Assembly: GCA_035940575.1 (NCBI GenBank)
Contig: DASZER010000043.1
Location: 130,961-194,960 of the forward strand
Length of the DNA stretch: 64,000 bases
DNA from: Frankiaceae bacterium
GTDB taxonomy: Bacteria > Actinomycetota > Actinomycetes > BP-191
Direction of reading: 5' to 3'
Positions 22,407 to 42,660 of the stretch are shown piece after piece; within the stretch, counting starts at the first letter, position 1, and the number at the start of each line of letters is the position of its first letter. Position numbers and translations under genes: made by a program. The notes beneath the pieces were generated by a model, which worked only from the letters and a program-made list of their open reading frames with translations, made no database searches and was not told the origin of the DNA.

Positions 22407-24974
22407 TCAACGGAAGTTCCTCGTCCCGGCGAGGCCGGCGGGCGCGTCGATGCTCTGGCCGGCGCCCGCCGCCATGGTCTCGTCGACGAGCCACATGCGG
22501 TGGTCGGCGTCCGGAACGGGCGCGACGGGGCAGACGCGCACGCCCGTCGAGAACCCCTCGAGGCTCGACTGGCGCACGAGGACGAACGGCCCCAGGACGC
22601 CGTGCACGCGGATGCCGTCGACCTTGTCGAGGGTGCCGCCGTAGAAGAGCCCGGGACGCACGAGCGTGGCGACGGTGTCGGTGACGTGGACGCTGCGTGC
22701 GTTGCCGACGAAGACGCCGTGCCGCTCGCGCGTGTACGACGCCGGGACCCGGGAGTGCACGACGTTGCGCGAGACGACGACCTCGCGCGCCTGCTCGCGG
22801 CCGGAACGCCGCGCGTGCGACGCGCCGACGTGGATGCCCTGGATGGCGTTCTCCACGACGTTGTCGTGGACTCGCACGGTGCCGACGGTCGTTCCCGCGA
22901 CGACGATGCCCTGGCCGGCCGCGGCGAGCGACGAGACGAACGCGAGGACGCCGGAGCGCGTGGTGGCCGACAGGCGCTCGAACGCGTCGGGACGCAGCGT
23001 CGCGCGGAGGAACTTCCGGATCTCCGAGAGTCTGCTTCGCGGTGGCCGCGGCAGCCCCGACTCGTGCTCGCGGTACTCGCTCGTGAGCGGCGCGGCGCGG
23101 CGCGCGGTCGCCATCTCCGCGAGGCGCATGCGGCCCGACGTGACTCCCGACGACGCGAGGATCGCGCGCGCGAGGTCGTGGACGACGACGTCCTGGCGAC
23201 CGCTCAGTAGCGTGTCGGCCCTGCCGGTGGGGACGTGACGGAGCTGGTTGCGCGCGACGTACGCGTCGGCGGCATCGGTCACGAGGACGCCGGTCTGCCA
23301 CGTGCCGATCTCGAGTGTGTTGCCGGTGACGGAGACGCGCTGCGAGGGCTCGTCGTCGGAGCCGCGCACGACGACGCACGCCTGGTCGCGAACGCTCGCG
23401 TCCGGGCAGGCGACCTCGCAGTCGTCGACCGCGATGCCTGAGCACCGGAGGAACGTCAGCGCGCCGCCGATGCCCTCGCCCTCGGTCGCGCCGGCGTCGC
23501 CGACGACGCGCAGGTGGCGTACGGCGACGTCGGAGGAGCGGTCGAACAGCAGCACCGTCTCCGAGCCCACGGAACGCAGGACCGTCGCCGGGCCGACGCC
23601 GGTGACGACGACGCGCCGGCGGTTCGCGATCCGGACCGGCTCGCGTACGACGTGCTCGCCCGCCGCGACGCAGACCTCGCCGCCGCTCGGGGGCAGCGAG
23701 TCGACGGCCACCTGGAGGTCGTCGCCAGGGAACACCGTGACGGTGCACGTCCCCGCGCCGTCCACGTCGACGAGCGAGCGGAACCGCGGCCGGCAGTCGT
23801 GCAGCACGGTCCCCGCGTCGAGGTCGAGCAGCGCGAGCGGGGCGAACGCGTGCGCGATCCCGTCGGGCGCGGCGGCGACGCGGCGCTCGACGCCGGGGGC
23901 CGCGCCGCTGCGCAGCCGCGCGCCCCACCAGTCGCCCGCGAGGTACGTCCCGTCCCCGGCCGTGAAGCGCAGCCCGAGGTCCGTGGCCGCGGGGCCGATC
24001 GTCGCGGCAACGGCGGCCACCGGGCCGACGACCTCGCCGTCCCAGCGGCGCACGACGAGGCCGTCGGCGCCCGCGGGCGCGGTGACCGCGCGGTCGAGAG
24101 TGAGGACGTCGCCGGCGGCGGAGGAGCTCGGGTTCACGACGCGGTACAGCGCGCCGTGCGGCAGCCGGTCCGCGCGCCGCGCGAGCCACGACACCTCGAC
24201 GAGCTCGTCCGTCGAGAACTTCACCGACGCCGACGGCTCCAACGTCACGGTGTCGCCGGCGACGGAACGGACGGCGACGGAGGCGGCGCCGTTCTCGACG
24301 GACCAGGCGAACCGCGCGTTGCTCCGCGAGCCTCCGTCGAGCACCTCGACGCGGAACAGCCCCTCGGGCAGCAGGCCGAGCGGGTCCCCCGGCGGGTCGC
24401 ACGGGTCGGTCGTCGTGGTGGGCGCGGCCGAGTCGATCGTGAGGCGGCCGGTCGACTCCGACGGCATGCCCAGCGCGGCGAACGCCGCGGTGCACGTCGT
24501 CGCGGTCGTCGGCGCGACGCGCACGCGGTAGCCGACGCGCGCCCGCGCGCAGGACTCGACAGGCGCGATGGCCGGGTCGACGAGCTCGCCGGGGCGTTCG
24601 CTCGGCTGGACGTGCTCGAGGAAGACGTCGAGGAACGCCAGCACGCGGCCCGCGCCGATCGGCGCCACCTGGGCCTGCTCGGCGTAGCGGAACGACGCCG
24701 GGGCGAACGCCTCCCATCCGTCCACCCACATGCGCCCTGGCTGCACGAGCAGGTCGCGCGGCGTCGAGCCGAGGACCGACACGCGGAACGCGTCGCTGCC
24801 CTCGACGACGCCGGCCGGGCCGACGACGTCGCGCATGGCGTGGGCGGAACGGCGCGCGTCGGCGTCGGCGTTGAGGTTCCACTCGTGGTCCAGCAGCACG
24901 CGGCCCTGTTGCATCCGCGCGGCGGTCCACCGGTCGTCGCGGCGCAGCGGCACCGCGGTGTAGTCGCCGGTCAT
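22407..24974 (-). CDS. DUF6519-type N-terminal domain plus right-handed beta-helix protein; candidate eCIS tail fibre / receptor-binding protein
   Basis: 855 aa, last gene of the operon. The N-terminus MTGDYTAVPLRRDDRWTAARMQQGRVLLDHEWNLNAD matches the DUF6519 signature (QQGRV.LD..WN). The C-terminal half has parallel beta-helix style repeats (NVVENAIQGIHVG, VVSRNVVHS, VFVGNARSVHVTD). Confidence 0.7.
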   Translation of the reverse strand: MTGDYTAVPLRRDDRWTAARMQQGRVLLDHEWNLNADADARRSAHAMRDVVGPAGVVEGSDAFRVSVLGSTPRDLLVQPGRMWVDGWEAFAPASFRYAEQAQVAPIGAGRVLAFLDVFLEHVQPSERPGELVDPAIAPVESCARARVGYRVRVAPTTATTCTAAFAALGMPSESTGRLTIDSAAPTTTTDPCDPPGDPLGLLPEGLFRVEVLDGGSRSNARFAWSVENGAASVAVRSVAGDTVTLEPSASVKFSTDELVEVSWLARRADRLPHGALYRVVNPSSSAAGDVLTLDRAVTAPAGADGLVVRRWDGEVVGPVAAVAATIGPAATDLGLRFTAGDGTYLAGDWWGARLRSGAAPGVERRVAAAPDGIAHAFAPLALLDLDAGTVLHDCRPRFRSLVDVDGAGTCTVTVFPGDDLQVAVDSLPPSGGEVCVAAGEHVVREPVRIANRRRVVVTGVGPATVLRSVGSETVLLFDRSSDVAVRHLRVVGDAGATEGEGIGGALTFLRCSGIAVDDCEVACPDASVRDQACVVVRGSDDEPSQRVSVTGNTLEIGTWQTGVLVTDAADAYVARNQLRHVPTGRADTLLSGRQDVVVHDLARAILASSGVTSGRMRLAEMATARRAAPLTSEYREHESGLPRPPRSRLSEIRKFLRATLRPDAFERLSATTRSGVLAFVSSLAAAGQGIVVAGTTVGTVRVHDNVVENAIQGIHVGASHARRSGREQAREVVVSRNVVHSRVPASYTRERHGVFVGNARSVHVTDTVATLVRPGLFYGGTLDKVDGIRVHGVLGPFVLVRQSSLEGFSTGVRVCPVAPVPDADHRMWLVDETMAAGAGQSIDAPAGLAGTRNFR

Positions 24975-27059
24975 CTATTCCTCCCACTGCGCGACGGCCA
25001 CGGCGGAGCGCAGGCCGAGTGGCACGAACTCGTCGATCCGCCGGCGCAGCCGCGCGATGCGCGCGCCGCGCCGGGCGTGGTGGTACGCGCCGACCTCGCC
25101 GCCGTCGCTCGCCGCCGTGAGCAGCGGGTGCTCCGGCTCGAGCGAGAGGGCGTAGTAGCCGGCCGCCTCGAACCCTTCCGAGACGAACGTGGGCGCGGGG
25201 AACCGCCAGCAGCGGTACGTCGCCGGGTGCGCCGGCGGGTCGGACAGGGCCGGGCCGAGGTACGAGCTGCGCAGGCACCCCTCCTGGCGCTGCACCACCT
25301 CGACGCCGTCGGCGAACACGCAGTCGACCGCCTCGATCGCGTCCACGCGGACAGGCCCGGCGAACGTCACGCCGTCCGCGTGCAGCACCGGCCCGAACCG
25401 CGTGAGCGCCGCGACCGCGTCCGCGGCGGGACCGCCCGCCGCCGCGTCGCACGGGCGCAGCAGGCGCCGCCGCCCGTCGACGACACAGTCGGTGAGCTCG
25501 ATCGGGAGCGCCCCGAGCTCCGCGCGGATCGGCGCGAGGAAGCAACGCCGCGCGGCGAAGGACAGCTCCCACGCCTGCGGGTCGACCTCGACGCCGAACG
25601 CCGGGTCCATCGTCACGCCGTCGAGCGTCACGGCGCGCGAGCGCGGCCCGAGCAGCAGCCCGCCCGCGAGGTAGAAGCCTTCGAGGCTCACGCACCCGCC
25701 GTCGACGTCGACCGCGAGGTCGCCGACGACGGTGGGCGTGAGCAACGGCGGCGCGACGACCCGCCACCGCACGGCGTTGCCCGCGGTGCCCGTGACGGGC
25801 GCGGCGGCGAGGCGGTCGGAGGTCTCCAGCCGGATCTCGACGTCGGGCACGCCAGGGCGCGAGGAGCCGGCGGCGAGGGTGGGGACGCGGACGAGCGCGA
25901 GGGCGACCGCCTCCGCGAGCGTCGCGACGATCGTGTCGCTCGCCGAGACGGCGGCGGCGGCGGGGTTGACGGTGACGACGATGCGCGCGGCGGGGTCGGC
26001 GTCGGAGCGCGAGACGAGCGCGCCGATGCCGCCCGCGGCGGGGCGGTGCCACGTCGCGCGCAGCGGGCCCGCGAGCCCGCTGCCGAGCTCGACGAGACCG
26101 CGGCCCGGGTCGACGAGCACCTCGCCCGCGGCGGGCGGCGCCGGCGCGGGAACGCCCGGCGGCACGCTGCCGAACCGCACCTTCTCCCACGCGACCGCCG
26201 TCGCGCCGGCGGTGAGCCCGAGCAACGGCGGCACCGCGTCGCCGGGCCGCGTCGCGAGCGGGTGGTCGCCGCTCAGCGCGAGCGAGGCGCCGTACGTCAC
26301 CTGGCCGGGGCCGGCGAGCGCGGCCATCACGTCGTACGTCGCGCGGACCGGCGCGTCGGACTCGTCGCCGGTGCGCGCGCGACCGGCGTCGACGCCGGTG
26401 TCGGACGCGAGCCGCACGGGGCGCGGCTTGAGGTACAGCGGGGCGTGCGCGCCGAGCGGGTGCAGCGCGAACCGCCGCGGGTCGGTCGCCGGGTCGAGCG
26501 GTGCGGCCTCGGTCGCGACGAGCGTCGACACCTGCCACGGCCACACGACCGCGGTGACGGCGCGCGGCGACCAGCGGCCGCCGGGCGTGACGCTGCGACG
26601 CGTGCGCTCGAACGGCGTCCCCACGCGGAACCGCGACCGGTCGCGCAGGTCGAGCGCGGCCGTACGCAGCGGCGGCGGGTGGCCGAGCCGCTGCGCCCAC
26701 AGCGTCACCTGCCACCCCTCGACCGCGCGGGTCGTGAGGCCCGTGACGACCTCGGCGAAGTCCTCCAGCGCGGCGGGCGTGCCCTTGCGGCGGCGCAGCG
26801 CGACGGCGTACGCGACCTCGGTGCGTTCGGCGTCGGGCGGCAGCCCGAGCAGCGAGCCGATGTACGGCACCGCCCAGTCCGCGCAGCTCTCGACGAACAG
26901 GTCGTGCCACAGCGAGTCGACGTCGGCCTCGAGGAGGGCCTGCTGCCGGTCGACCGCCGCGAGCAGCGCGTCGAGCAGCCGCGACGCGTCCGGCTCGTCC
27001 GCCGGCGCGTCGCGTACGGCGGGCGGGAGCCACCGGGCGATCCCCGCGGTCTCGGTCAT
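24975..27059 (-). CDS. P2 gpI-like baseplate/tail protein (Afp12-like)
   Basis: Sub-ORF of track frame 24975..29594 from ATG 27059 (ATGA overlap), 694 aa. The N-terminus RWLPPAVRD...LLDALLAAVDRQQALLEADVDSLWHDLFVESCADWAVPYIGSLLGL fits the tail protein I family pattern. Confidence 0.75.
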   Translation of the reverse strand: MTETAGIARWLPPAVRDAPADEPDASRLLDALLAAVDRQQALLEADVDSLWHDLFVESCADWAVPYIGSLLGLPPDAERTEVAYAVALRRRKGTPAALEDFAEVVTGLTTRAVEGWQVTLWAQRLGHPPPLRTAALDLRDRSRFRVGTPFERTRRSVTPGGRWSPRAVTAVVWPWQVSTLVATEAAPLDPATDPRRFALHPLGAHAPLYLKPRPVRLASDTGVDAGRARTGDESDAPVRATYDVMAALAGPGQVTYGASLALSGDHPLATRPGDAVPPLLGLTAGATAVAWEKVRFGSVPPGVPAPAPPAAGEVLVDPGRGLVELGSGLAGPLRATWHRPAAGGIGALVSRSDADPAARIVVTVNPAAAAVSASDTIVATLAEAVALALVRVPTLAAGSSRPGVPDVEIRLETSDRLAAAPVTGTAGNAVRWRVVAPPLLTPTVVGDLAVDVDGGCVSLEGFYLAGGLLLGPRSRAVTLDGVTMDPAFGVEVDPQAWELSFAARRCFLAPIRAELGALPIELTDCVVDGRRRLLRPCDAAAGGPAADAVAALTRFGPVLHADGVTFAGPVRVDAIEAVDCVFADGVEVVQRQEGCLRSSYLGPALSDPPAHPATYRCWRFPAPTFVSEGFEAAGYYALSLEPEHPLLTAASDGGEVGAYHHARRGARIARLRRRIDEFVPLGLRSAVAVAQWEE

Positions 27060-29587
27060 GCCACCACCTCGGTCACGGTCGAGCCGGGCGCGACGACGAG
27101 CAGCTCGTAGCGGCCGGCGACGAGGCGTTCGACAGGCGGGGCGGACGGCGCGGGGGGCGTGCCCGTCCACAGTCGCAGTGACGTCACGCCCGCGACGCCG
27201 GGCACCGCGTGGACGGCGCCGACGACGTCGGAACGGTCCAGCGCGCGGCCCAGGGAGCGCGCGCGTGGCCCGAGCGGCCCGTCGCCGTCGAGCAGCGCCG
27301 CGCGGACGGCCTCGGGCACGGTCCCGGCCGCGCGGCGCGGGTCGCGCGCGACGGCGAGCGCGACGCACGCCTCGGTCACGGCGCCGGCCGCGACGCAGAG
27401 CGGCACGGTCACGTCGCGGCGCGCGTCGAGGTACGCCGAGAGAGACGTGACCTCGTCGGGCACCGGCGCGCGGACCCCCTGCGCGCCGGCGAAGCGGACG
27501 AACGCCACGTGCAGGCCGGAGCGGCCGCAGGCGCAGCCGGGCGGGCCGTCGCCGTGCCACGCGGCCGTGTGGCTGACGCCGGGGAACGCGAGCGCGAGGT
27601 CGGCGAGGTCGCCCGTCGAGACCGCCCGCCCGAACGCCCGGGCGCGGGCCGGCGCCAGGCCGCGCAGCCGCTCCTCGTCGTCCTGGTCGGCGCCGCCGCT
27701 CGTCGGCCCGACGCCGCCGACGCCGCGCACGCCGCGGATGCTGCCGACGAGCGAGTCGATCGCGCCGGACTCGACCTCGCCGGCGGTGCCGCCGCCGACG
27801 CGGTACGCCGCCGTGACGTTGTTGCGACCGGTGGGCAGCCTGTTGCCGTCGTGCCCGTCGCCGAAGCGCACCGCGACGGCGCCCGTCGCGTCGAGCGTGG
27901 TGGCGTACGCGTCGACGGGGCCGGCGTCGTAGAGCGACGGGCGCTCCGCCCACTCCAGGCCGTCGACGCGGACGACGAGGGTCGAGACGGGCGTGCCGTC
28001 GGGGCCGATGTCGTACGCGACCGGCGACTTCGGCACCGCCATCACCTGGCCGGCGCGGATCGCGTCGCCGCTGCCGAGCGTGCTCGTCGCGGCCGTGCCG
28101 TGCCGGACGCGGACGACGTTGCCGCTGGCCGGCTGCTTGTCCACCGGGCCCGCCGGGCGGCCGTCGAGGAGGTCGACGACGAGGCCGTTCGGGGCGTCGC
28201 CCTGGGCGTCCTCCTGCTGGGCGGACCGCGCGCACTCGAACACCTCCCACACGGGCTCGCCGCCGTCCGGAACGCTGCGCACCGCGACGCGCGGCGGCGC
28301 CTCCGCGGGCGCCGGGTACAGCCGCAGGCGCGCGGGCGCGGGCGCCGGGGGGACGCGCGGCGGGATCGCGTAGTGGCGGGCGAGGACGCGGCGGTCGACG
28401 ACGTACGCCGTCACGGGGCCGCCCCACGTCAGCGCCGGCACCGCCGTGGCGAACTCCAGCCTGGACACCCGCGCGGACGAGCCGGGCGCGATCTCCCACT
28501 CGACGAACGTGTGCCCGGAGATCGTCGCGACGTCGCACGCGCCGCGGCTCCAGTCGACGATCGCGCAGAGCTGCTCCTTGGAGACGTCCTCCAGCGCGGT
28601 GTCGAGGACGACCGACGCGCTCGACGCGCCGGTGGTGATCGCGCCGCCCGTGTAGAGCCCGCCGATCCCCACCGCGGTCGCCGCCGCGTCGGTGAGGCGC
28701 AGCGCGTGGGTGATGCGCCGCGCGGAGCCGGCGGACGCGACGACGCGGTACGCGCCGTAGACCGTCGACGTTCCCGGCAGCAGCGTGTGGAGGTCGCGGT
28801 CGAACGTCACGACGGCGGTGCCGAGCTCGCGCTCGCGCCCCTCGACCACGGTGAGCGCGATCGGGCTGAACGCCGCCGGCTTGCCCCAGTAGTAGTAGAA
28901 GAGCAGCCACGACCACCACGACGACCAGTCGCCGGACGGCACGGGCGCGGCGGGCTGCTCGGACTCGTTCAGCAGGAGGACGCGGTCGCCCGCGCCGAAG
29001 CCGGGGTCGCGCAGGAACCGCAGCTCGCGCCCGGTCGGCGCGGCGGGCTCCGGTACCGGGGTGGCGGTGAGGCTCGCCCAGTCCGCGTGCAGCTCGGTGG
29101 TCTCGGCGACCTCGTACTTCTGGCTCTCGCGCGTGCCGGGCACGGCCGGCGCCTGCACCCGGGTGCCGGCCGGCACGACGGGCGCCGCGCCCTTGTCGGT
29201 GTCGAAGCGCACCCACCCCGCCGCCGCGACGCCCGCGCGCGGGCGGTAGCCGACGAGCGCGGCCAGCCGGCGCAGGTCCGTCCAGTCCGCGGCGGTCGCG
29301 AGGTACGACTCGTTGGCGGTGAGCTCCGCGTACGCCGCGACGGTCTCGGCGACGTAGGCCCAGAGGCGTACGAGGCGCATCGCGCGCGGGTCGCCCTCGA
29401 CGTCCCACGCCGCGCCGAGCGGCCCGCCGTCGGGGCCGCGCACGTGCTCGGTCTCGCGGACGAGGTCCTCGGCGAACGCCGCGAAGTCGCCCGAGCGACG
29501 TCGCAGCCGGGTGAGGCCGGGCGGCGGCGGGACGAGCCCGAGACGCGGGTCGCCGGACGCGCAGGGGCGGCGCGGGTCGCAGCTCAC
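27056..29587 (-). CDS. Baseplate J-like protein (second copy, Afp11-like)
   Basis: Sub-ORF of track frame 27056..32008 from GTG 29587 (GTGA overlap), 843 aa. LVRLWAYVAETVAAYAELTANESYLATAADWTDLRRLAALVGYRPRAGVAA and the C-terminal GGADQDDEERLRGLAPARARAFGRAVSTGDLADLA are J-like hallmarks. Confidence 0.8.
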   Translation of the reverse strand: MSCDPRRPCASGDPRLGLVPPPPGLTRLRRRSGDFAAFAEDLVRETEHVRGPDGGPLGAAWDVEGDPRAMRLVRLWAYVAETVAAYAELTANESYLATAADWTDLRRLAALVGYRPRAGVAAAGWVRFDTDKGAAPVVPAGTRVQAPAVPGTRESQKYEVAETTELHADWASLTATPVPEPAAPTGRELRFLRDPGFGAGDRVLLLNESEQPAAPVPSGDWSSWWSWLLFYYYWGKPAAFSPIALTVVEGRERELGTAVVTFDRDLHTLLPGTSTVYGAYRVVASAGSARRITHALRLTDAAATAVGIGGLYTGGAITTGASSASVVLDTALEDVSKEQLCAIVDWSRGACDVATISGHTFVEWEIAPGSSARVSRLEFATAVPALTWGGPVTAYVVDRRVLARHYAIPPRVPPAPAPARLRLYPAPAEAPPRVAVRSVPDGGEPVWEVFECARSAQQEDAQGDAPNGLVVDLLDGRPAGPVDKQPASGNVVRVRHGTAATSTLGSGDAIRAGQVMAVPKSPVAYDIGPDGTPVSTLVVRVDGLEWAERPSLYDAGPVDAYATTLDATGAVAVRFGDGHDGNRLPTGRNNVTAAYRVGGGTAGEVESGAIDSLVGSIRGVRGVGGVGPTSGGADQDDEERLRGLAPARARAFGRAVSTGDLADLALAFPGVSHTAAWHGDGPPGCACGRSGLHVAFVRFAGAQGVRAPVPDEVTSLSAYLDARRDVTVPLCVAAGAVTEACVALAVARDPRRAAGTVPEAVRAALLDGDGPLGPRARSLGRALDRSDVVGAVHAVPGVAGVTSLRLWTGTPPAPSAPPVERLVAGRYELLVVAPGSTVTEVVA

Positions 29588-32031: not shown

Positions 32032-32393
32032 GGCTCGGCCCGCACGTCGACCGTCGCGGGCGCCCCGGCGGGCTTGAGGCGGTACGTCACCTGCGCGTGC
32101 AGCGTCGACTCGGCGTCGCGCCGTACCGTCACCGACTCCACGTGCACGCGGTCGCCGAGCGCCTGGTCGAGCGACCCGCGCGCGCGGACCTCGACGACGT
32201 TGAGCAGCGCGTCGTGCAACGGCTCGAACAGCGTCGACGCGCCCAGCCCCGCGCCGAAGCCGGGGCGGTGCAGCCGCTCCCCGGCGCCCGTCAGCAGCAC
32301 GAGGCGTACGAGGTCCGCGACGTGGCGTTCGACGTCGGCGTCGGCGAGTTGGCGGGCGGGGGTCAACCGGTACGGGTGGCGGGCGGGGTTCAC
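32028..32393 (-). CDS. GPW/gp25-like baseplate wedge protein
   Basis: Sub-ORF of track ORF 32028..32549 from GTG 32393 (GTGA overlap), 121 aa. DVERHVADLVRLVLLTGAGERLHRPGFGAGL matches the gp25 lysozyme-like family pattern. Confidence 0.8.
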   Translation of the reverse strand: MNPARHPYRLTPARQLADADVERHVADLVRLVLLTGAGERLHRPGFGAGLGASTLFEPLHDALLNVVEVRARGSLDQALGDRVHVESVTVRRDAESTLHAQVTYRLKPAGAPATVDVRAEP

Positions 32394-34301: not shown

Positions 34302-34585
34302 CAGGCCCCCTCGCGCCCGGGAAGGTCGACGCGCTGGCCGGGACGTTCGAGCCGCGTCGCGTCGTGCCACGGGTTGGCGTCGGCGAGGCGCCACCACTGC
34401 GTGCTGTCACCGGCGGCGGCGTGGGCGAGCAGGTCGAGCCGGTCGCCGGCGCGGACGTCGTAGCCGCCGGTCGCGACCTCCGGCGCGGGCACGACGCGCG
34501 GCGCGGACAGCGTGATCGGCGTGCCGTCGGCGGCCGTCGACGTGACGGTCGGCTGCGTCGCGTAGCGGGACTTGGCGTCGTACAC
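34301..34585 (-). CDS. LysM-like tail protein (P2 gpX-like)
   Basis: 94 aa, GTG start. YDVRAGDRLDLLAHAAAGDSTQWWRLADANPW resembles the LysM/tail protein X motif. Confidence 0.6.
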   Translation of the reverse strand: MYDAKSRYATQPTVTSTAADGTPITLSAPRVVPAPEVATGGYDVRAGDRLDLLAHAAAGDSTQWWRLADANPWHDATRLERPGQRVDLPGREGA

Positions 34586-34586
34586 G

Positions 34587-35207
34587 TCAGCCCCCCAGCT
34601 CGAGGATCTGCGGGAGCTGGAGTACGGCCTTCACCTCGCGGGCGGCCTTGTAGTAGTCGGCCGCCGCCTGCGCGACGGTCTCGCCCGGCAGGTCCTCCTT
34701 GCGCAGCACGCTCAGGCCGAGGTCGGCCGTCGCGTGGATCGGGTTCAGCAGGTCGTCGAACGCCGTCTCGCGGATCGTCAGCGACTTGAGCAGCACCGGC
34801 GTGATCCGCGTCGGGCCCCACGCGAAGAAGATCAGCGGCAGCCGCGTCGGCGGGATCTGCGCGCCGGCGCTCCCGCCGAGCAGGCCGCCCACGAGCCCGC
34901 CGAGCAGCGACGACCCGACCGGCTGCATGAGCATCTCGATCGCCGCGAGCCGCGGCGAGATGCCGAACAGCGTCGTCAGCGGCCCGCCGCTCTCCAGGGC
35001 GTCGGTGGCGTCGAGCTCCAGCGTGACCGAGTAGTCCTCGTTCGGGGGCGCGCCGACCGCGCGCTTGTCGCTCGTCTCGCCCTGGACCGCGACGTGCGCG
35101 AAGACGCGGGTGACGGTCGTCGGGTTGTACTGGAACAGCACGACGGTCGGGATCAGCCCGAGCAGCGGGTCGCTGAACGACAGCAGCATCCCCTTGAGCA
35201 GCGTCAC
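34587..35207 (-). CDS. eCIS tube-fold / tube-initiator-like protein (Afp7 N-terminal-like), family uncertain
   Basis: Sub-ORF of track ORF 34587..35330 from GTG 35207 (GTGA overlap), 206 aa. VVLFQYNPTTVTRVF, PLIFFAWGPTRITPVLLKSLTIRETAFDDLLNPIHATADLGLSVL resemble conserved CIS tube-related proteins as I recall them; needs an HMM check. Confidence 0.45.
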   Translation of the reverse strand: MTLLKGMLLSFSDPLLGLIPTVVLFQYNPTTVTRVFAHVAVQGETSDKRAVGAPPNEDYSVTLELDATDALESGGPLTTLFGISPRLAAIEMLMQPVGSSLLGGLVGGLLGGSAGAQIPPTRLPLIFFAWGPTRITPVLLKSLTIRETAFDDLLNPIHATADLGLSVLRKEDLPGETVAQAAADYYKAAREVKAVLQLPQILELGG

Positions 35208-35368
35208 GTCCGCCCCCCGTCCCGCTGCCGCGCGACGGCCGAGGCGACCGCGTCGGCGACCGTCCGCTCCGGGCCGGCCGGCCACGGGCCGCCGCGCAGC
35301 ACGGTCTCGATCGCGGTCCGCAGCAGGCACGGCGACGGCGCGCGGTCGGTCTCGACGCGGACGTTCAT
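35204..35368 (-). CDS. 54-aa hypothetical protein inside the eCIS operon
   Basis: Tail of track ORF 35204..37186: MNVRVETDRAPSPCLLRTAIETVLRGGPWPAGPERTVADAVASAVARQRDGGRT. ATGA overlap with the AAA+ stop and GTGA overlap with the next start support translation. Confidence 0.4.
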   Translation of the reverse strand: MNVRVETDRAPSPCLLRTAIETVLRGGPWPAGPERTVADAVASAVARQRDGGRT

Positions 35369-37266: not shown

Positions 37267-38387
37267 GTGGTCACCGTCGTGGGGAAGGCCGCGCCGGCGA
37301 CGCGCTGCGAGCGAAGGGTGAGGGTGCGCTCGCCCGCGGTCCCGGCGGGGACCACGAACCGCACCTGCGTGGGCGACAGCACCGTCGCCGCCACGCGCGT
37401 GCCGTCGACGAACAGCTCGGTGTCCGTTCCGCAGTGCGCTGTCGTCAGCGTGACGGTCGCGCCCTCGGCGACGGGCGCGCTCGCCGAGAGGATCGTCGGG
37501 ACGACGGTCAGCGCCAGGCTGTCGCCGCGTACCGGAAGGCCCTCCGCGCTCATCGTCACGTCGAGGCGGCGCACGCCGGCGCGCAGGTCGTTGCGCGGCA
37601 GCCGCATCGTCACCGTCGTCGCCGTCGACGCGGTGACGGTCATCGGCCAGCCCGCGTCCGGCGCGCCGGCCGGGTCGCCGGGCTCCGGCGCGAGCGTGAA
37701 CGCCGCGCCCGGCAGCAGGCCGTCGACGGTGACGACGGTCGGAGTGGCCGCCGCGATCCGGCTCGGCGTCGCGCCCGCGAGCCGCGCGCCGCGCGTCGGC
37801 GCGGTGACGAGGCGGCGTTCGCGCACCGGCGGCCCGGGCTCCGACGTCCGCTGCTGCTCGACCGTGACGAGGCTGACGACGTAGCCGACCGACAGCCGGA
37901 TCGGCTCCGACGCCGAGGTCCAGATCTTGGAGAGCGTCTCGAGGTCGAGCGACTCCAGCGCGAACCGCAGCGGCTCCGCGAGCGGCGGCGGCGTCGGCGG
38001 GAGGAACGGCGACCCCGCCCCGACGATCGCGTTCTCGTGCACCGCGCGCATCGCGGCCGCGAGCGCGATGTGCGCGGTCTGCTCCTGGTCTCCGACGGCG
38101 GTCAGGTCGGCGGGGTACGTCGTCAGCAGGTAGTGCAGCTCCAGCGCGAGCGGCGGCGCGCCGCGCGAGGTGTGCGAGCCGGTCGCGGGCGGCTCCATGT
38201 TGCGGTACGCGGCGTTCGGGGCGATGCGGTAGAGGAACCAGTTCAGCCGCGGCCCCTCGGCGTCCCGGTCGAGCGGGCCGACCGTCACCTCGGGGCGGGG
38301 CATCATGCCCGCGTCGACGAGGCCGCGTTCGGCGATGCGCTTGAGCGCGTCGTCCACGACGCGGATCGCCTCGGCGGTGACGGTCAC
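37263..38387 (-). CDS. DUF4255 (Pvc16/Afp16-like) tail terminator/cap protein with C-terminal Ig/IPT-like extension
   Basis: Sub-ORF of track ORF 37263..38558 from GTG 38387 (GTGA overlap), 374 aa. VTVGPLDRDAEGPRLNWFLYRIAPNAAYRN and LELHYLLT match the DUF4255 signature. The C-terminal half is beta-rich (TVVTVDGLLPGAAFTLAP..., TVTLTTAHCG). Confidence 0.8.
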   Translation of the reverse strand: MTVTAEAIRVVDDALKRIAERGLVDAGMMPRPEVTVGPLDRDAEGPRLNWFLYRIAPNAAYRNMEPPATGSHTSRGAPPLALELHYLLTTYPADLTAVGDQEQTAHIALAAAMRAVHENAIVGAGSPFLPPTPPPLAEPLRFALESLDLETLSKIWTSASEPIRLSVGYVVSLVTVEQQRTSEPGPPVRERRLVTAPTRGARLAGATPSRIAAATPTVVTVDGLLPGAAFTLAPEPGDPAGAPDAGWPMTVTASTATTVTMRLPRNDLRAGVRRLDVTMSAEGLPVRGDSLALTVVPTILSASAPVAEGATVTLTTAHCGTDTELFVDGTRVAATVLSPTQVRFVVPAGTAGERTLTLRSQRVAGAAFPTTVTT

Positions 38388-39529
38388 GCGCGGCTCGCAT
38401 GGCGCGACCGCGCGCCGCGCCGGGCGGCGAGCGAGGCGAACGCGTCCGCGGCCGGAGCCGGCGCCGGCGCGGTGACGACGGTGATCTGGTCGATGCGTAC
38501 GGTCGGCTCGGCGGGCGGCGCGGCCTGCGCGGGCGCGGCGGCGGGGGCGTCCCACCACGCCTGCGCGACGTCGGACACGGCCCTGCGGGCCGCACCGCGG
38601 GCGGCGCCCGCGACGTTCGCGGCGGGCGGGGGCGCGGCGGGTGAGACGAGGGCGGTCATTGCCTCGCCTGACGGGGCTGCCTCGACGGCGGGCGGGACCG
38701 TGGGCGGGCCGTCCGCGCCGGCAACCGGCGCCCCACCCTCGCGCGCGGCCAGGTGGGCGGCGACGGTCTGCGCGACGGCGGCATCGGGCGGCCGGGTGGC
38801 GGGCGGCGGGACGGCCGCGGCGGGGGGCGGGGCCGCGGCGGGTGAGACGCGGGCCGACACTGCCGCGGCCGACGGGGCTGCGTCGACGGCGGGCGGGCCC
38901 GTGGGCGGGCCGTCCGCGCCGGCGACCGGCGCCCCGCCCTCGCGCGCGGCCAGGTGGGCGGCGACGGTCTGCGCGACGGCCGCGTCCGCGGCGTCGGGTG
39001 GCCGGGTGGCGGGCGGCGGGACGGCCGCGGCGGGATGGGAGGCCGTGCGGGGCGTCGCGTCGCCGCGTACCGTGGCGGCGGCAGCGGGGCGCACCGCCGC
39101 GACGCCGCTCGCGGTCGGGCCGGTCTCGCCCGTCGCGGCGGTCTCGCCCGTCGCGCCGATCACCGCGCGACCGAGAGGACCGTTCGCACCCGTCGCCGCA
39201 ACGGTCGCCGCGCCACTCGCCACGCCACTCGCCGGGGCAGCGTCCGGTGCCGCGCGGTCGGCGGGACCACCGCTCGCCGCACGGGTCGCGCCGCCCGGCG
39301 CCTTCCCCGCAGGCGAGGTGGCCTCCGCCGCCGAGCCGACCGAGGCCGCCTCCGGCCGCGCCGTCGTCGCGGCGGCCGGCACCACCAGCGCGGCGCCCGC
39401 CTGCACGTCACCGGGGGCGCCCGGCAGCCACCCCGATCCGTCCCCGACCAGGCCGCCCCAGGGCGAGGCCGTACGCACCGCCGGTCGCCGCGCGCGCGCC
39501 ACGAGCCGCGACGCGGCGGAGCCGCTCAC
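38384..39529 (-). CDS. Ala/Pro-rich repeat protein; candidate tail-length tape measure (Afp14 position)
   Basis: Track ORF 38384..39550. Preferred start is GTG 39529, which forms a GTGA overlap with the upstream stop. 381 aa of low-complexity Ala/Pro/Gly sequence with an internal ~67-aa tandem duplication and a C-terminal TVRIDQITVVT segment. Frame chosen by coupling at both ends; a composition-driven artefact cannot be fully excluded. Confidence 0.55.
   Translation of the reverse strand: MSGSAASRLVARARRPAVRTASPWGGLVGDGSGWLPGAPGDVQAGAALVVPAAATTARPEAASVGSAAEATSPAGKAPGGATRAASGGPADRAAPDAAPASGVASGAATVAATGANGPLGRAVIGATGETAATGETGPTASGVAAVRPAAAATVRGDATPRTASHPAAAVPPPATRPPDAADAAVAQTVAAHLAAREGGAPVAGADGPPTGPPAVDAAPSAAAVSARVSPAAAPPPAAAVPPPATRPPDAAVAQTVAAHLAAREGGAPVAGADGPPTVPPAVEAAPSGEAMTALVSPAAPPPAANVAGAARGAARRAVSDVAQAWWDAPAAAPAQAAPPAEPTVRIDQITVVTAPAPAPAADAFASLAARRGARSRHASRA
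38621..39033. repeat. Two-copy tandem direct repeat (about 201 and 210 bp)
   Basis: gtgagacg recurs at 38641 and 38842 (offset 201), and gccgggtggcgggcggcgggacggccgcggcgg recurs at 38791 and 39001 (offset 210). The difference is a 9-bp insertion (gccgcgtcc) in the second copy. The core around ...gtgggcgggccgtccgcgccggc.accggcgcccc.ccctcgcgcgcggccaggtgggcggcgacggtctgcgcgacgg is nearly identical by eye. Confidence 0.85.
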
Positions 39530-40167
39530 CGCCCCTCCGCGACGAGCCACGCGAAGCGGCTACGGCGGTCCGGCGGCAGTGCCTCGATCGTCGCGAGGTC
39601 CCAGCCGTACGTCCTCGCCAGCAGGTGCACCTCGACGTCCGCGTCGTCGAGCACCCGCATCAACGACTCCAGCACCAGCCGCTGCACGTCGACCGGGCTC
39701 TCGACCGTGGCGCCGCACTCCGCGCAGACCGCGACCAACGGCCCCGACAACGTCGTGTCGACGGCGTCGATGTCGTCCGCGGTCGCGGCGCGCGACGGCG
39801 TCCCGACCGTGCAGCGGCGCAGCAGCTCCTCGGTCGCGACGTCGACGTCGGGGGGCAGTCCGGCGAGGTCGGCGTACGTCGGCTCGCGCACGCCGGCACC
39901 CGGCCCCAGCGGCACCGACCGCGGCTCCCACGGCGGCACGGTCCGAGGGCCGAGCAGCACCGAGCTCACCGCGTCGCACGCGCCGCAGGTCAGCGTGAGC
40001 TCGAGGTCGCGACCGGTCACGGCGCGGTGCACGTCGAGCAGCGCGCGGTCGCCCGCGCCGAGGGCCGTGCGCGGCGCGTCGTAGCCGGCCGCCGCGAGCA
40101 GCGCGGTCGCCTGCGCGAGCTCGTCGGGGTGCTCGCGCAGCACGCCGAGCGCGCGCTGGTCGATCAA
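39526..40167 (-). CDS. Cys4 (zinc-ribbon-like) hypothetical protein in the tail-chaperone position
   Basis: Sub-ORF of track ORF 39526..40602. The start is uncertain (TTG 40167 or a GTG a few codons later), about 213 aa. LTCGACDAV ... VAVCAECGATV give a CxxC...CxxC pair. Located between the tube and the putative tape measure. Confidence 0.5.
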   Translation of the reverse strand: MIDQRALGVLREHPDELAQATALLAAAGYDAPRTALGAGDRALLDVHRAVTGRDLELTLTCGACDAVSSVLLGPRTVPPWEPRSVPLGPGAGVREPTYADLAGLPPDVDVATEELLRRCTVGTPSRAATADDIDAVDTTLSGPLVAVCAECGATVESPVDVQRLVLESLMRVLDDADVEVHLLARTYGWDLATIEALPPDRRSRFAWLVAEGR

Positions 40168-40172: not shown

Positions 40173-40667
40173 TCAGGCCTCTACCGGCTCGGTCACCGCC
40201 GGGTCGCGTTCCCAGCTCTCGAGCTCGAGCTTGATGGTCTCGATCGCGACCGCGGCGTTGGCGGCGTCGAGCTGCGGCATCGCCTGGTACTCCGACACCC
40301 AGCAGCGGTGCAGGTTGTACGACATCACGCGCTGGCCGGCCTCGTTGAAGACGTCGAGCGTGACGTCCTTGCGGAAGCTCTTGAGCGAGATCGGGTTCTG
40401 CAGCGAGTGGACGAGGTTCGCCCACTTCTCGAACTCGGGGTCGTGGGTGACGCCGCGTTCGAGCGTCACGCCCTCGTACTTCGTCACGCCCGGGCTCTTG
40501 CGCTCGCGCGAGGGGTCCGCGCCGTCGCGGTGGACGACGGGCGTCGTCGTCCGCTTCAGCGCGCTCATCTTCGACAGCCCCGCGACGTAGTTGCCGTCCC
40601 ATCGGACGCGGAACATGAAGGACTTGTACGGGTCGAACCGCGTCGCGTTCACCGTGAACTGCGCCAC
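40173..40667 (-). CDS. Phage tail tube protein (T4 gp19-like, Afp1-like)
   Basis: 164 aa. MAQFTVNATRFDPYKSFMFRVRWDGNYVAGLSKMSALKRTTTPVVHRDG... is a typical gp19/conserved phage tail region pattern. Confidence 0.9.
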   Translation of the reverse strand: MAQFTVNATRFDPYKSFMFRVRWDGNYVAGLSKMSALKRTTTPVVHRDGADPSRERKSPGVTKYEGVTLERGVTHDPEFEKWANLVHSLQNPISLKSFRKDVTLDVFNEAGQRVMSYNLHRCWVSEYQAMPQLDAANAAVAIETIKLELESWERDPAVTEPVEA

Positions 40668-40668
40668 C

Positions 40669-42660: not shown

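What the first reader, a model, noticed from the sequence alone, without database searches (positions are those of the whole stretch)
22407..42660. Complete 19-ORF extracellular contractile injection system (eCIS) operon of the actinobacterial type
Seen: 19 same-strand ORFs with essentially no intergenic DNA. In order they are sheath (PVQTTYPGVYVEE), gp19-like tube, a Cys4 protein, an Ala/Pro-rich repeat protein, a DUF4255-type cap (LNWFLYRI), an AAA+ ATPase (GPSGTGKT, FFDECD), a 54-aa ORF and a tube-fold protein. Then come LysM/gpX-like, gpD-like, gpV/gp5 OB-fold spike, PAAR-like, gp25-like, two baseplate-J-like, gpI-like, and a DUF6519 plus beta-helix protein. Established: a DUF4255 cap and a dedicated AAA+ ATPase embedded in P2-like tail and baseplate modules define the eCIS family (Afp/PVC/MAC/Streptomyces CIS). 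The defining absence is capsid, portal, terminase, integrase or T6SS membrane-complex genes. The two sub-modules (sheath-tube-chaperone-tape measure-D and V-W-J-I-fibre) each keep P2-like internal order. Inference: this is a functional particle-forming locus and the accessory centre of the window. The system class is known, so novelty lies in its cargo, regulation and fibre (separate findings).
Basis: partly seen in the sequence, partly recalled or inferred. Interest (0 to 1): 0.8.

Follow-up and report, generated by a model that had tools for sequence, protein, structure and literature searches.

The report
Phage-tail-like injection system gene cluster
This is an intact 17-gene cluster in a Frankiaceae soil bacterium that encodes a phage-tail-like contractile injection machine of an already catalogued type; it is ordinary as a class, but it appears to share a conserved on-switch with its neighbouring cargo genes.

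Summary
The finding is essentially right. Window 22407-42660, minus strand, holds one tightly packed operon (junctions -25 to +8 nt). It encodes sheath, tube, DUF4255/Pvc16 cap, AAA+ ATPase, tube initiator, LysM protein, split gp27/gp5 spike, PAAR-like tip, gp25, two J-like wedge proteins, a gpI-like protein and a DUF6519 (eBAP5)/beta-helix fibre. No head, terminase, integrase or T6SS membrane genes occur in the 64 kb.

Corrections:
- There are 17 genes, not 19.
- By published subtype criteria the cluster is lineage IIa-like, not the Streptomyces coelicolor IId type.
- The Cys4 protein folds like T4 gp26/gp51 hub-assembly factors, not a P2-type chaperone.
- "Extracellular" is unproven. The closest solved relatives are membrane-anchored (haloarchaea) or cytoplasmic (Streptomyces). 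The fibre gene and the lack of any membrane anchor favour an extracellular mode.

The functional unit extends upstream to about 48600. It adds a SARP regulator, a conserved 60-aa ORF and three DUF4157 (eCIS_core) cargo candidates.

Direct GTGACG repeats at an 11-bp period precede the sheath operon (3 copies) and cargo genes (2 copies). The same pattern recurs in Actinomadura, Dactylosporangium, Geodermatophilus and metagenomic loci.

Verdict: new member of a known kind.

The parts
40669..42660 (-). g1, contractile sheath (Cis2/Afp2-4 equivalent), 663 aa, with a large variable middle region
   Evidence: Pfam Phage_sheath_1 8.2e-11 and Phage_sheath_1C 2.4e-10. PDB: 9ezm 1.3e-60, 8bky 5.8e-56, Pvc2 6.6e-39, Afp2 4.3e-34. 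ATG preceded by GAGGAGG.
40173..40667 (-). g2, inner tube (Cis1/Afp1), 164 aa
   Evidence: Pfam Phage_T4_gp19 5.7e-40. PDB tube chains of tCIS and AlgoCIS at about 2.6e-11.
39526..40167 (-). g3, Cys4 (two CxxC) protein, 213 aa; predicted T4 gp26/gp51-like baseplate-hub assembly factor
   Evidence: No Pfam, NCBIfam or PHROG hit. AF2 pLDDT 95.9. No PDB fold match. BFVD: 11 hits at E<=1e-3 to T4-like hub assembly, gp26 and gp51-like proteins, best 2.2e-6. The four Cys are invariant in 37 homologues.
38384..39550 (-). g4, Ala/Pro-rich low-complexity protein, 388 aa, with a 67-aa tandem duplication; candidate length determinator (tape-measure slot)
   Evidence: TRF period 201 x 2.0 at 38619-39034. 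Only the termini are conserved in L001 and L009. Orthologue length varies from 283 to 388 aa. No family hit. The role is inferred from position only.
37263..38387 (-). g5, cap/tail terminator (Cis16/Afp16) with a C-terminal IPT/TIG Ig-like domain, 374 aa
   Evidence: Pfam Pvc16_N 1e-28 (residues 11-190) and TIG 5.3e-5 (residues 298-365). Same length and architecture in L001, L014-L017.
35365..37266 (-). g6, AAA+ ATPase (Cis15/Afp15), 633 aa
   Evidence: Pfam AAA 6.9e-30 at residues 428-555. Walker A GPSGTGKT and Walker B FFDECD.
35204..35368 (-). g7, conserved 54-aa protein of unknown role
   Evidence: tblastn-conserved in L001, L002, L009 and L013. A 58-69 aa gene is called at the same place in L014-L017. 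No family hit.
34587..35207 (-). g8, tube initiator (Afp7/Cis7-like tube-fold baseplate protein), 206 aa
   Evidence: Own CIS_tube hit E=0.075. Many homologues carry PF19266. Profile hit to 9rce_H at 3e-4. Foldseek top 10 are all CIS or phage baseplate initiator chains, E 1.7e-5 to 8e-4, but the model pLDDT is only 52. hhalign against g2 was negative.
34301..34585 (-). g9, LysM-like small protein (P2 gpX / LysM part of Afp7-type proteins), 94 aa
   Evidence: PHROG baseplate hub, wedge and endolysin LysM families at E about 5e-4. Weak profile match to the S. coelicolor CIS LysM protein 9gtp_P, E=0.27.
33207..34292 (-). g10, gp27/gpD-like hub (N-terminal half of a split VgrG/Afp8), 361 aa
   Evidence: Pfam Phage_GPD 3.3e-6, below the gathering score. 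PHROG_52 tail protein 1.3e-10. g10 and g11 together are collinear with the single VgrG chain 9rce_F, 1.5e-8.
32722..33207 (-). g11, gp5/gpV OB-fold spike (C-terminal half of a split VgrG/Afp8), 161 aa
   Evidence: Pfam Phage_base_V 2e-19. Aligns to the C-terminal part of AlgoCIS 7aef_q and of 9rce_F.
32390..32722 (-). g12, PAAR-like spike tip (DUF4280-type; Afp10 equivalent), 110 aa
   Evidence: Own DUF4280 hit E=0.012 over the full length. 6 of 8 orthologues hit DUF4280, best 6.7e-4, and one hits PAAR_motif.
32028..32393 (-). g13, gp25/gpW wedge protein (Cis9/Afp9), 121 aa
   Evidence: Pfam GPW_gp25 1.4e-7. PDB 9gtp_V 4e-4 and 2ia7.
29584..32031 (-). g14, first Afp11/gp6/J-like wedge protein, 815 aa
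   Evidence: NCBIfam TIGR02243 176.8 bits against a 155.8 cutoff. Weak Baseplate_J. Paralogous to g15, BLASTP 1e-7.
27056..29587 (-). g15, second Afp11/gp6/J-like wedge protein, 843 aa
   Evidence: Pfam Baseplate_J 3.1e-7. PDB 9gtp_1K (S. coelicolor baseplate J-like protein) 8.3e-6.
24975..27059 (-). g16, P2 gpI/Afp12-like wedge protein, 694 aa
   Evidence: Tail_P2_I and TIGR02242 are both sub-threshold on residues 27-123. 8 of 8 orthologues hit Tail_P2_I, best 4.7e-7. No PDB relative.
22407..24974 (-). g17, tail-fibre candidate: DUF6519 (eBAP5 baseplate anchor) N-terminal part plus a C-terminal right-handed beta-helix, 855 aa
   Evidence: Many homologues at about 50% identity carry PF20129, and some are named beta-helix proteins. 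Own hits are weak: Beta_helix E=0.22, NosD 0.075. The eBAP5 definition comes from PMC12923769.
42704..42731 (-). Candidate SARP operator of the structural operon: three perfect GTGACG(GC) copies at an 11-bp period, followed by 9 nt, AAGGGT, and a roughly 20-nt leader with an SD sequence
   Evidence: Three-copy boxes lie upstream of the sheath in L014-L017.
42717..42899 (-). Conserved 60-aa ORF between the SARP gene and the sheath; unknown role; its last codons are encoded by the box
   Evidence: GC3 0.92. A homologous 59-aa ORF sits at the same place in L017. No family hit.
42921..42948 (-). Degenerate three-copy box (TTGACG/GTGACG/GTGACA) 21 nt upstream of the 60-aa ORF's ATG
42934..43743 (-). 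Small SARP-family activator (OmpR-type DNA-binding domain plus BTAD), 269 aa (start 43743 or 43686)
   Evidence: Pfam BTAD 1e-20. Aligns to the AfsR SARP module 8hvr_I residues 50-279 over query residues 43-263, 1e-11; also EmbR. BTAD genes are adjacent to the cluster in L002, L015 and L017.
43791..45434 (+). DUF4157/eCIS_core protein a (547 aa), cargo candidate, divergent from the SARP gene; no clear box
   Evidence: Pfam eCIS_core 2.3e-23. HExxH at residue 134.
45439..47109 (-). DUF4157/eCIS_core protein b (556 aa) with an Aspzincin_M35 metalloprotease domain, cargo candidate; two-copy box at 47133-47149
   Evidence: Pfam eCIS_core 6.2e-22 and Aspzincin_M35 2.7e-7. Box.
47196..48560 (-). DUF4157/eCIS_core protein c (454 aa), cargo candidate; two-copy box at 48583-48599
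   Evidence: Pfam eCIS_core 4.8e-24. Box.
22202..22233 (.). Perfect 14-bp stem/4-nt loop hairpin 174 nt past the g17 stop; candidate (bidirectional) terminator closing the operon
   Evidence: The consensus terminator scan found no T-tract terminator.

Best explanation
Window 22407-42660 (minus strand) is a 17-gene, translationally coupled operon in a Frankiaceae bacterium. It encodes all structural parts of a phage-tail-like contractile injection system of eCIS lineage II, with the gene content of subtype IIa.

Inferred assembly, by analogy with solved CIS particles: a hub forms from the split spike (g10 gp27-like and g11 gp5-like), tipped by the PAAR-like g12. It is built with the LysM protein g9, the tube initiator g8 and the T4 gp26/51-like factor g3. 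Six wedges of gp25 (g13), two J-like paralogues (g14, g15) and a gpI-like protein (g16) surround the hub and carry the DUF6519/beta-helix fibre (g17). Tube (g2) and sheath (g1) polymerise on this baseplate, possibly measured by the Ala/Pro-rich g4, and are closed by the DUF4255 cap (g5). The AAA+ ATPase (g6) assists assembly or cargo loading.

The cargo is most likely one or more of the three adjacent DUF4157/eCIS_core proteins, one of which carries an M35 zinc protease.

Transcription of the operon, of a 60-aa ORF and of two cargo genes is most likely activated by the adjacent SARP regulator. It would act through GTGACG direct repeats spaced 11 bp apart that replace the -35 element.

Shown: gene content, order, conservation, the boxes and their positions. 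Inferred: particle assembly, cargo identity, SARP activation. Favoured but unproven: the particles act outside the producer cell through the fibre.
For: - Family assignments.
- Solved-structure relatives are all CIS particles.
- g3 fold.
- Tight coupling of the genes.
- Collinearity in 15 loci, including Actinomadura, Dactylosporangium and Geodermatophilus isolates.
- Purifying selection.
- No phage head, integrase or T6SS genes in 64 kb.
- Subtype criteria (PMC6899500) are met for IIa: two Afp11 copies, split Afp8, PAAR-like gene, Afp12-like gene and fibre.
- The fibre class eBAP5 is defined for Actinobacteriota (PMC12923769).
- DUF4157 proteins are CIS-associated cargo (PMC11126660; PMC11566945) and are adjacent in the window, L001, L014, L016 and L017.
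- The regulator has a SARP module.
- Exact GTGACG-N5-GTGACG occurs 4 times against 0.09 expected, only upstream of CIS-related starts.
- There are three copies before every sheath gene and two before cargo genes in five other loci.
- The classical SARP operator is 2-3 heptamer repeats in 11-bp units overlapping the -35 element (PMC10972967).
- No transmembrane anchor is present in or near the cluster.
Against: - No experiment exists for this lineage in bacteria.
- The two closest solved relatives act inside the producer: membrane-anchored in Halogeometricum and cytoplasmic in Streptomyces.
- No lysis cassette that could release particles is present in the window.
- The g8 model is of low confidence.
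- g4 has no similarity to any tape-measure protein, and low-complexity Ala/Pro sequence is atypical for one.
- g7 and the 60-aa ORF are unexplained.
- DUF6519 was not detected directly in this copy.
- One of the three DUF4157 genes has no clear box.
- Box function rests on sequence pattern and comparative placement only.
- Subtype was assigned by gene-content criteria, not by an Afp11 phylogeny.
Confidence: 0.75

Rival explanations
1. The same particle is built, but it works inside the producer, like the Streptomyces coelicolor CIS. Particles would stay in the cytoplasm of the filamentous host and fire on stress or during development, causing regulated cell death or differentiation. The 'fibre' would then serve to engage the producer's own membrane or wall from within.
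For: The second-best solved sheath relative is the cytoplasmic CIS-Sc (PMC10066040). Frankiaceae are filamentous actinobacteria (own knowledge). There is no lysis cassette in the window. Control by a SARP, a regulator family tied to secondary metabolism and differentiation (PMC10972967). Fibres can anchor to internal membranes in tCIS (PMC12923769).
Against: The cluster fails the IId gene-content criteria. [quoted passage not shown] A conserved fibre with a carbohydrate-type beta-helix and a PAAR-like tip is present, whereas CIS-Sc has no fibre. The cargo candidates have no transmembrane segment, unlike Sco4256-4258.
Confidence: 0.2
2. It is a cell-anchored, T6SS-like contact-dependent weapon, as shown for the haloarchaeal clade IIa system. 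The baseplate would be docked at the cytoplasmic membrane and fire outward.
For: The best solved sheath match is 9ezm, from the Halogeometricum borinquense system (PMC11566945). The IIa-type gene content is shared, including two Cis11 copies, Cis12/13 and neighbouring DUF4157 genes.
Against: The archaeal T6SS mode correlates with a conserved six-helix membrane protein. No membrane protein is encoded in or beside this cluster or its relatives. A thick actinobacterial wall would have to be crossed. The sheath scores to the IIa and IId relatives are close (208 against 193 bits).
Confidence: 0.04
3. It is a remnant prophage tail or an R-type tailocin (bacteriocin) rather than a cargo-injecting CIS.
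For: The tail and baseplate modules are P2/T4-like. A tRNA-Arg gene and a tRNA-like fragment abut the cluster end.
Against: The DUF4255 cap, the dedicated AAA+ ATPase and the DUF4157 neighbours are hallmarks of eCIS, not of tailocins. There are no head, terminase, integrase, holin or endolysin genes in 64 kb. There is no att repeat. The same 17 genes occur in different genomic contexts across orders. No relatives were found among viral contigs.
Confidence: 0.01

Closest known systems
Haloarchaeal CIS of Halogeometricum borinquense ('archaeal T6SS', dbeCIS clade IIa; PMC11566945; sheath structure 9ezm)
   Same: It gives the best solved-structure match to the sheath (1.3e-60). The gene content is shared: two Cis11 genes, Cis12, Cis13, cap, ATPase and DUF4157 proteins in the neighbourhood, with no recognisable Afp14-type tape measure.
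   Different: The host here is a bacterial actinomycete rather than an archaeon. There is no conserved multi-pass membrane anchor. All structural genes sit in one uninterrupted operon rather than two sub-clusters split by an 8.7-kb spacer. A LysM protein is present. The fibre is of the DUF6519/eBAP5 type. The mode of action is unknown.
Streptomyces coelicolor cytoplasmic CIS (CIS-Sc, clade IId; PMC10066040, PMC12237407; 8bky, 9gtp, 9gts)
   Same: The host phylum is the same. It is the second-best sheath match (5.8e-56). gp25, J-like and LysM baseplate chains are detectably related. Both have a cap plus an AAA+ ATPase.
   Different: CIS-Sc has a single Afp11 gene, a contiguous VgrG, no fibre, no PAAR protein in S. 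coelicolor, membrane-protein effectors, the CisA anchor, and the ATPase and cap placed upstream of the sheath. The window has two Afp11 genes, a split spike, a PAAR-like gene, a fibre, no CisA, and the cap and ATPase between the tube and baseplate modules.
Afp / PVC / AlgoCIS (lineage I extracellular CIS; 6rao, 6j0n, 7adz, 7aeb)
   Same: The overall parts list and likely mechanism are the same: sheath, tube, initiator, spike, PAAR, gp25, gp6/J, gp7/I-like protein, fibre, ATPase and Pvc16-type cap.
   Different: Sequence relationship is more distant (sheath 101-137 bits). Lineage I has several sheath and tube paralogues, one Afp11, a contiguous Afp8 and a recognisable Afp14 tape measure, with the cap and ATPase at the 3' end. 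Here there is a single sheath gene and a single tube gene.
eBAP5 (DUF6519) tail-fibre class of Actinobacteriota eCIS (PMC12923769)
   Same: g17 belongs to a family whose members carry PF20129. It sits directly after the wedge genes and has a C-terminal beta-helix, as described for eBAP5 fibres.
   Different: Nothing substantive. This copy is too divergent for the Pfam model to report it.
SARP-activated promoters of Streptomyces antibiotic clusters (ActII-ORF4, DnrI, AfsR; PMC10972967)
   Same: The regulator has the SARP module. The operator consists of 2-3 direct repeats in 11-bp units placed where a -35 element would be, followed by a -10-like hexamer.
   Different: The repeat sequence (GTGACG) and the target are different: the target is a contractile injection system and its cargo genes, not a biosynthetic cluster. 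No paper in the searched library links SARPs to CIS.

Membership tests
eCIS / CIS superfamily (Afp-PVC-like; Chen 2019, Geller 2021) | Contractile sheath and gp19-type inner tube genes | tested here: met
eCIS / CIS superfamily (Afp-PVC-like; Chen 2019, Geller 2021) | Afp11 (gp6/Baseplate_J) wedge protein | tested here: met
   g15 Baseplate_J 3.1e-7; g14 TIGR02243 above the cutoff.
eCIS / CIS superfamily (Afp-PVC-like; Chen 2019, Geller 2021) | DUF4255/Pvc16-type cap and a dedicated AAA+ ATPase inside the cluster | tested here: met
   Pvc16_N 1e-28 and AAA 6.9e-30, in adjacent genes.
eCIS / CIS superfamily (Afp-PVC-like; Chen 2019, Geller 2021) | Spike (gp27/gp5), gp25 and PAAR-type tip | tested here: met
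   The PAAR-like call is supported at orthologue level only.
eCIS / CIS superfamily (Afp-PVC-like; Chen 2019, Geller 2021) | Absence of capsid, portal, terminase and integrase genes, and of T6SS TssJLM/ClpV | tested here: met
   Pfam survey of every called gene in the 64 kb. The contig beyond the window was not examined.
eCIS / CIS superfamily (Afp-PVC-like; Chen 2019, Geller 2021) | Particles are released and act extracellularly | not testable with these tools
   Needs EM or cryo-ET and activity assays. The fibre is present, but there is no lysis cassette.
dbeCIS subtype IIa | Two copies of the Afp11 gene | tested here: met
   g14 and g15 are collinear paralogues, BLASTP 1e-7. Criterion.
dbeCIS subtype IIa | Afp8 split into separate gp27-like and gp5-like ORFs | tested here: met
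   g10 (GPD) plus g11 (base_V) together align to single VgrG chains.
dbeCIS subtype IIa | Afp10 (PAAR) present, and divergent Afp12 and Afp13 present | tested here: met
dbeCIS subtype IIa | Placement in the IIa clade of the Afp11 phylogeny | not tested
   Reference Afp11 sequences from dbeCIS or eCIStem were not available. The only indirect evidence is the best sheath match to the IIa structure 9ezm.
dbeCIS subtype IId (Streptomyces CIS-Sc type) | Single Afp11 gene and a contiguous Afp8 ORF | tested here: not met
   against the criteria.
dbeCIS subtype IId (Streptomyces CIS-Sc type) | No Afp12/Afp13; a CisA membrane protein downstream of the baseplate genes | tested here: not met
   A gpI-like gene and a fibre are present. 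No transmembrane protein is in or next to the cluster. CisA itself was not searched by sequence.
SARP-controlled regulon | Regulator with an OmpR-type DNA-binding domain plus BTAD | tested here: met
   Alignment to the AfsR SARP module at 1e-11; BTAD 1e-20.
SARP-controlled regulon | Two to three direct repeats in 11-bp units at the -35 position of target promoters | tested here: met
   conserved in five other loci. Transcription start sites are inferred, not mapped.
SARP-controlled regulon | Binding of the regulator to the repeats and activation of transcription | not testable with these tools
   Requires EMSA or footprinting and reporter or RNA-seq experiments.

The most novel reading that the evidence does not exclude
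This lineage may be a genuinely extracellular, fibre-bearing injection system of Gram-positive actinobacteria. A dedicated SARP activator would switch on the whole regulon through a conserved (GTGACG-N5)n operator: three copies for the 17-gene structural operon and two copies for each DUF4157 cargo gene. That would be the first defined transcriptional logic for a lineage-II CIS. It would also give a simple handle (over-expressing one small activator) to awaken these silent clusters in cultured Actinomadura, Dactylosporangium or Geodermatophilus, and a motif that identifies unlinked cargo genes genome-wide.
Probability: 0.4. Interest if true: 0.6.

Novelty: new member of a known kind. Interest (0 to 1): 0.4.

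Why it matters
As a class the locus is known. eCIS loci have been catalogued by the hundreds to thousands, and DUF6519 fibres are already described as typical of Actinobacteriota.

Its value is as a clean, complete example of a lineage (IIa-like, fibre-bearing, in actinobacteria) that has no experimentally characterised bacterial member. The only studied actinobacterial CIS are intracellular. This locus and its cultured relatives are therefore good test cases for whether Gram-positive bacteria also make truly extracellular injection particles.

The conserved SARP box is directly testable. If it is real, it offers a way to induce the system and to find its cargo.

The structure-based link of the conserved Cys4 protein to T4 gp26/gp51 hub-assembly factors fills in one of the 'subtype-specific genes of unknown function' noted for lineage II.

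Tried and rejected
- Plain six-frame ORF listing was unusable at 75% GC; codon-position GC replaced it.
- Direct hmmscan for DUF6519 in g17 was negative even at E<=10. It was resolved only through homologues.
- hhalign of g8 against the tube protein g2 gave no signal (probability 0.2%). The tube-initiator reading rests on family-level Pfam and Foldseek results instead.
- PDB profile searches found nothing useful for g3 or for the g16 N-terminus. PDB Foldseek for g3 was empty.
- NCBIfam and PHROGs gave nothing for g3, g4, g7, g8, g12, g17 or the 60-aa ORF.
- A viral-contig scan with the tube protein found no relatives.
- The genome-collection scan returned only two loci, and the source genome itself is not among the representatives.
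- A search for an att-like repeat of the tRNA-Arg 3' end found only chance matches, so recent tRNA-site integration is not supported.
- The consensus promoter/terminator scan found nothing at the 3' end.
- The REC-only response regulator downstream is not conserved with the cluster in other loci, so it was not counted as part of the system.
- Prophage, tailocin and T6SS readings were rejected on gene content.
- Membership of the Streptomyces IId type was rejected on the published criteria.

Full report
**Observation**

The window has about 75% G+C, so a mechanical ORF list shows long open frames on both strands everywhere. Codon-position GC and a frame plot resolve a single array of genes on the minus strand. 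It runs from the sheath ATG at 42660, preceded by GAGGAGG, to a stop at 22407.

I count 17 genes, not 19. Independent gene calls in four related genomes also give 17. The 16 junctions range from -25 to +8 nt, and 11 of them overlap. So "essentially no intergenic DNA" is correct.

**Gene identities**

Several assignments pass curated thresholds:
- sheath: Phage_sheath_1 and Phage_sheath_1C
- tube: T4_gp19, 5.7e-40
- cap: Pvc16_N/DUF4255, 1e-28, with an extra C-terminal IPT/TIG domain
- AAA+ ATPase: 6.9e-30
- OB-fold spike: Phage_base_V, 2e-19
- gp25
- Baseplate_J in g15
- the NCBIfam equivalog TIGR02243, "putative baseplate assembly protein", in g14

g14 and g15 are collinear paralogues (BLASTP 1e-7).

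Other assignments needed family-level evidence:
- **gpD-like g10.** Phage_GPD is just under threshold, with PHROG tail protein at 1.3e-10. g10 and g11 together align collinearly to single VgrG chains of solved CIS particles, so the spike is split.
- **gpI-like g16.** All 8 orthologues hit Tail_P2_I, best 4.7e-7.
- **PAAR-like g12.** Six of 8 orthologues hit DUF4280.
- **LysM-like g9.** PHROG hits at E about 5e-4.
- **g8.** Its homologues carry Pfam CIS_tube. Even a weak AF2 model (pLDDT 52) retrieves only baseplate tube-initiator chains of PVC, AFP, tCIS, AlgoCIS, the S. coelicolor CIS and phages.
- **g17.** DUF6519 is not detected in this copy, but many homologues at about 50% identity carry PF20129, and some are named right-handed beta-helix proteins.
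- **g4.** The Ala/Pro-rich protein contains a 201-nt tandem duplication. Only its termini are conserved.
- **g3.** The Cys4 protein has no sequence-family match and no fold match in the PDB. Its model is very confident (pLDDT 95.9) and matches a coherent set of predicted T4-type baseplate hub assembly, gp26 and gp51-like proteins. It is therefore better described as a hub-assembly factor than as a P2-type tape-measure chaperone.
- **g7.** This 54-aa protein is conserved but unexplained.

**Surroundings**

Every called gene in the 64 kb was scanned. There are no capsid, portal, terminase, integrase, holin or endolysin genes, and no T6SS membrane-complex genes.

Downstream of g17 lie a perfect 14-bp hairpin, a tRNA-Arg gene and a housekeeping block (a REC-only regulator, argS, lysA, hom, thrC, thrB). 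No att-like repeat of the tRNA was found.

Upstream of the sheath lie a 60-aa ORF, a regulator and three proteins with the Pfam eCIS_core (DUF4157) domain. The regulator aligns with the DNA-binding plus BTAD module of AfsR (BTAD 1e-20). One of the DUF4157 proteins has an Aspzincin_M35 protease domain, and all three have HExxH. After these comes a DnaE2/ImuB cassette. No protein in or beside the cluster has a convincing transmembrane helix.

**Origin and relatives**

g17 and g3 are 100% identical to hypothetical proteins of a Frankiaceae bacterium MAG (locus tags VGX28_09445 and VGX28_09515), on a 275-kb contig.

The 17 genes are collinear, at 39-98% protein identity, wherever they are covered:
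- in a second Frankiaceae MAG and an Acidimicrobiales MAG
- in eleven metagenomic contigs
- in Actinomadura sp. 6N118, a Dactylosporangium and Geodermatophilus sp. SYSU D00691
- in a further metagenomic contig whose upstream layout (eCIS_core, BTAD, 59-aa ORF, sheath) is identical to the window's

Against a 90-98% identical relative, dN/dS is 0.03-0.31. BTAD and DUF4157 genes accompany the cluster in most loci, but at variable positions.

**Which kind of CIS**

The sheath's best solved relatives are:
- 9ezm, the Halogeometricum borinquense CIS: clade IIa, membrane-anchored, described as T6SS-like
- 8bky/9gtp, the cytoplasmic S. coelicolor CIS: clade IId

Lineage I particles (PVC, Afp, AlgoCIS, tCIS) score lower.

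Chen et al. 2019 give gene-content criteria for subtypes. Afp11 has two copies in IIa and IIc. Afp8 is split in IIa, IIb and IIc. PAAR is absent only in IIb. Afp12 and Afp13 are present in IIa and IIb and mostly absent in IIc and IId. The window meets the IIa combination and fails the IId one. It also lacks CisA, the membrane protein required for firing of the Streptomyces system.

The fibre belongs to the DUF6519 "eBAP5" class, defined in 2026 as a baseplate-anchor domain of eCIS tail fibres. That class correlates with Actinobacteriota and is often followed by a beta-helix. The lineage is therefore catalogued, but I found no experimentally characterised bacterial member.

**Mechanism**

The structural logic follows solved CIS particles: hub, wedges, fibre, tube and sheath, cap and ATPase. 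This is inference by homology.

The cargo is most likely the DUF4157 proteins. The domain marks CIS effectors and co-purifies with spike and initiator proteins in S. davawensis, and it also flanks the haloarchaeal cluster.

The mode of action is open. The fibre, the PAAR-like tip, the absence of any membrane anchor and the soluble cargo favour an extracellular mode. The intracellular behaviour of the nearest characterised relatives and the lack of a lysis cassette argue for caution.

**Regulation (beyond the original finding)**

Three perfect GTGACG(GC) copies at an exact 11-bp period lie 43 nt upstream of the sheath ATG. GTGACG-N5-GTGACG with at most one mismatch occurs at only four places in the 64 kb. 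All four are on the minus strand, and each lies 21-43 nt upstream of a same-strand start: the 60-aa ORF, the sheath and two DUF4157 genes. Exact matches number 4 against 0.09 expected.

After the last copy come 9-10 nt and then a -10-like hexamer with A at position 2 and T at position 6. This holds at 9 of the 11 sites seen across all loci. For three of the genes the start codon follows 6-7 nt later, which suggests leaderless mRNAs.

The same box recurs with three copies before the sheath gene in Actinomadura, Dactylosporangium, Geodermatophilus and L017. It recurs with two copies before DUF4157 genes in L001, L014 and L017.

This is the classical SARP operator geometry, and a SARP gene is adjacent. 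No paper in the searched library links SARPs with CIS. The inference is a SARP-activated regulon. It is unproven but directly testable.

**Verdict**

It needs refinement in subtype (IIa-like, not Streptomyces-type), in one component (the T4-like hub-assembly factor) and in the unproven word "extracellular".

Novelty is new member of a known kind, with moderate interest. The most novel defensible reading concerns the conserved SARP box and the possibility of a truly extracellular actinobacterial CIS.

Noticed in passing
window 42704-42731, 42921-42948, 47133-47149, 48583-48599 (minus strand); L001 22048-22064; L014 2220-2285; L015 2566-2593; L016 2452-2479; L017 1737-1753 and 2803-2830: GTGACG direct repeats at an exact 11-bp period lie upstream of sheath genes (3 copies) and DUF4157/eCIS_core genes (2 copies). 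Each box is followed by a -10-like hexamer, and a SARP gene is next door. This looks like a conserved SARP operator and regulon for this CIS lineage, and the searched literature does not describe one.
   Followed up: yes
window 42717-42899 (-); L017 2638-2817: A 59-60 aa ORF (M-x-ERTYVLVVRVW...EWL..VT.R) between the SARP gene and the sheath is conserved in two loci. Its last codons (V-T-x-R-stop) are encoded by the first two box repeats. It has no family match and no known function.
   Followed up: partly
window 21970-22044 (+): A tRNA-Arg(CCG) gene lies immediately beyond the 3' end of the cluster, with its 3' end facing the cluster. This is island-like geometry, but no repeat of the tRNA end and no integrase was found in the window.
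   Followed up: yes
window 22245-22268 (-): The sequence GGGTTCGACTCCCGG-CGTGGAGCA resembles a tRNA T-arm plus 3' acceptor strand. It may be a remnant of an old attachment site. It is unique in the window and is not called as a tRNA.
   Followed up: partly
window 22202-22233: A perfect 14-bp stem with a 4-nt loop (GGCAGAGCCGCGGA-gatg-TCCGCGGCTCTGCC) lies between g17 and the tRNA. It is a likely bidirectional terminator without a T-tract.
   Followed up: partly
window 38619-39034 (within g4): A 201-nt (67-aa) tandem duplication at 88% identity lies in the Ala/Pro-rich protein. Orthologues range from 283 to 388 aa, with only the termini conserved. If g4 is the length determinator, particle length would differ between strains.
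   Followed up: partly
protein P0329 (homologue of g3): One g3 homologue (354 aa) is fused to a T4_gp19 tube domain. This hints at a physical or functional link between the hub-assembly-like Cys4 protein and the tube. A gene-call or frameshift artefact is also possible.
   Followed up: no
window 37263-38387 (g5 residues 298-365): The DUF4255 cap protein carries a C-terminal IPT/TIG Ig-like domain that is conserved in all orthologues seen (373-375 aa). It may decorate the distal end of the particle.
   Followed up: partly
L009 about 17100-19686: In this metagenomic relative about 2.6 kb separates the gpI-like gene from the fibre homologue (39% identity), so an extra gene may be inserted at the fibre position.
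   Followed up: no
window 49062-50054 (+): A 330-aa Cys-rich protein with an N-terminal signal-peptide-like segment and no family match lies just beyond the third DUF4157 gene. Whether it belongs to the system is unknown.
   Followed up: no
window 51934-57435 (-): A DnaE2 / ImuB (IMS family) / ImuA'-like mutagenesis cassette lies to the right of the CIS region.
   Followed up: no
window 926-5350 (-) and 6774-9518 (-): Tad/Flp pilus genes (TadE/G-like, two TadB/C-like, CpaF-like ATPase) lie at the left end of the window, together with a 914-aa LAL-type (AAA_16 + TPR + LuxR) regulator.
   Followed up: no
window 21560-21931 (-): A stand-alone receiver-domain response regulator lies just past the tRNA. 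It is not conserved next to the cluster in other loci, so it is probably host flank and not part of the system.
   Followed up: partly
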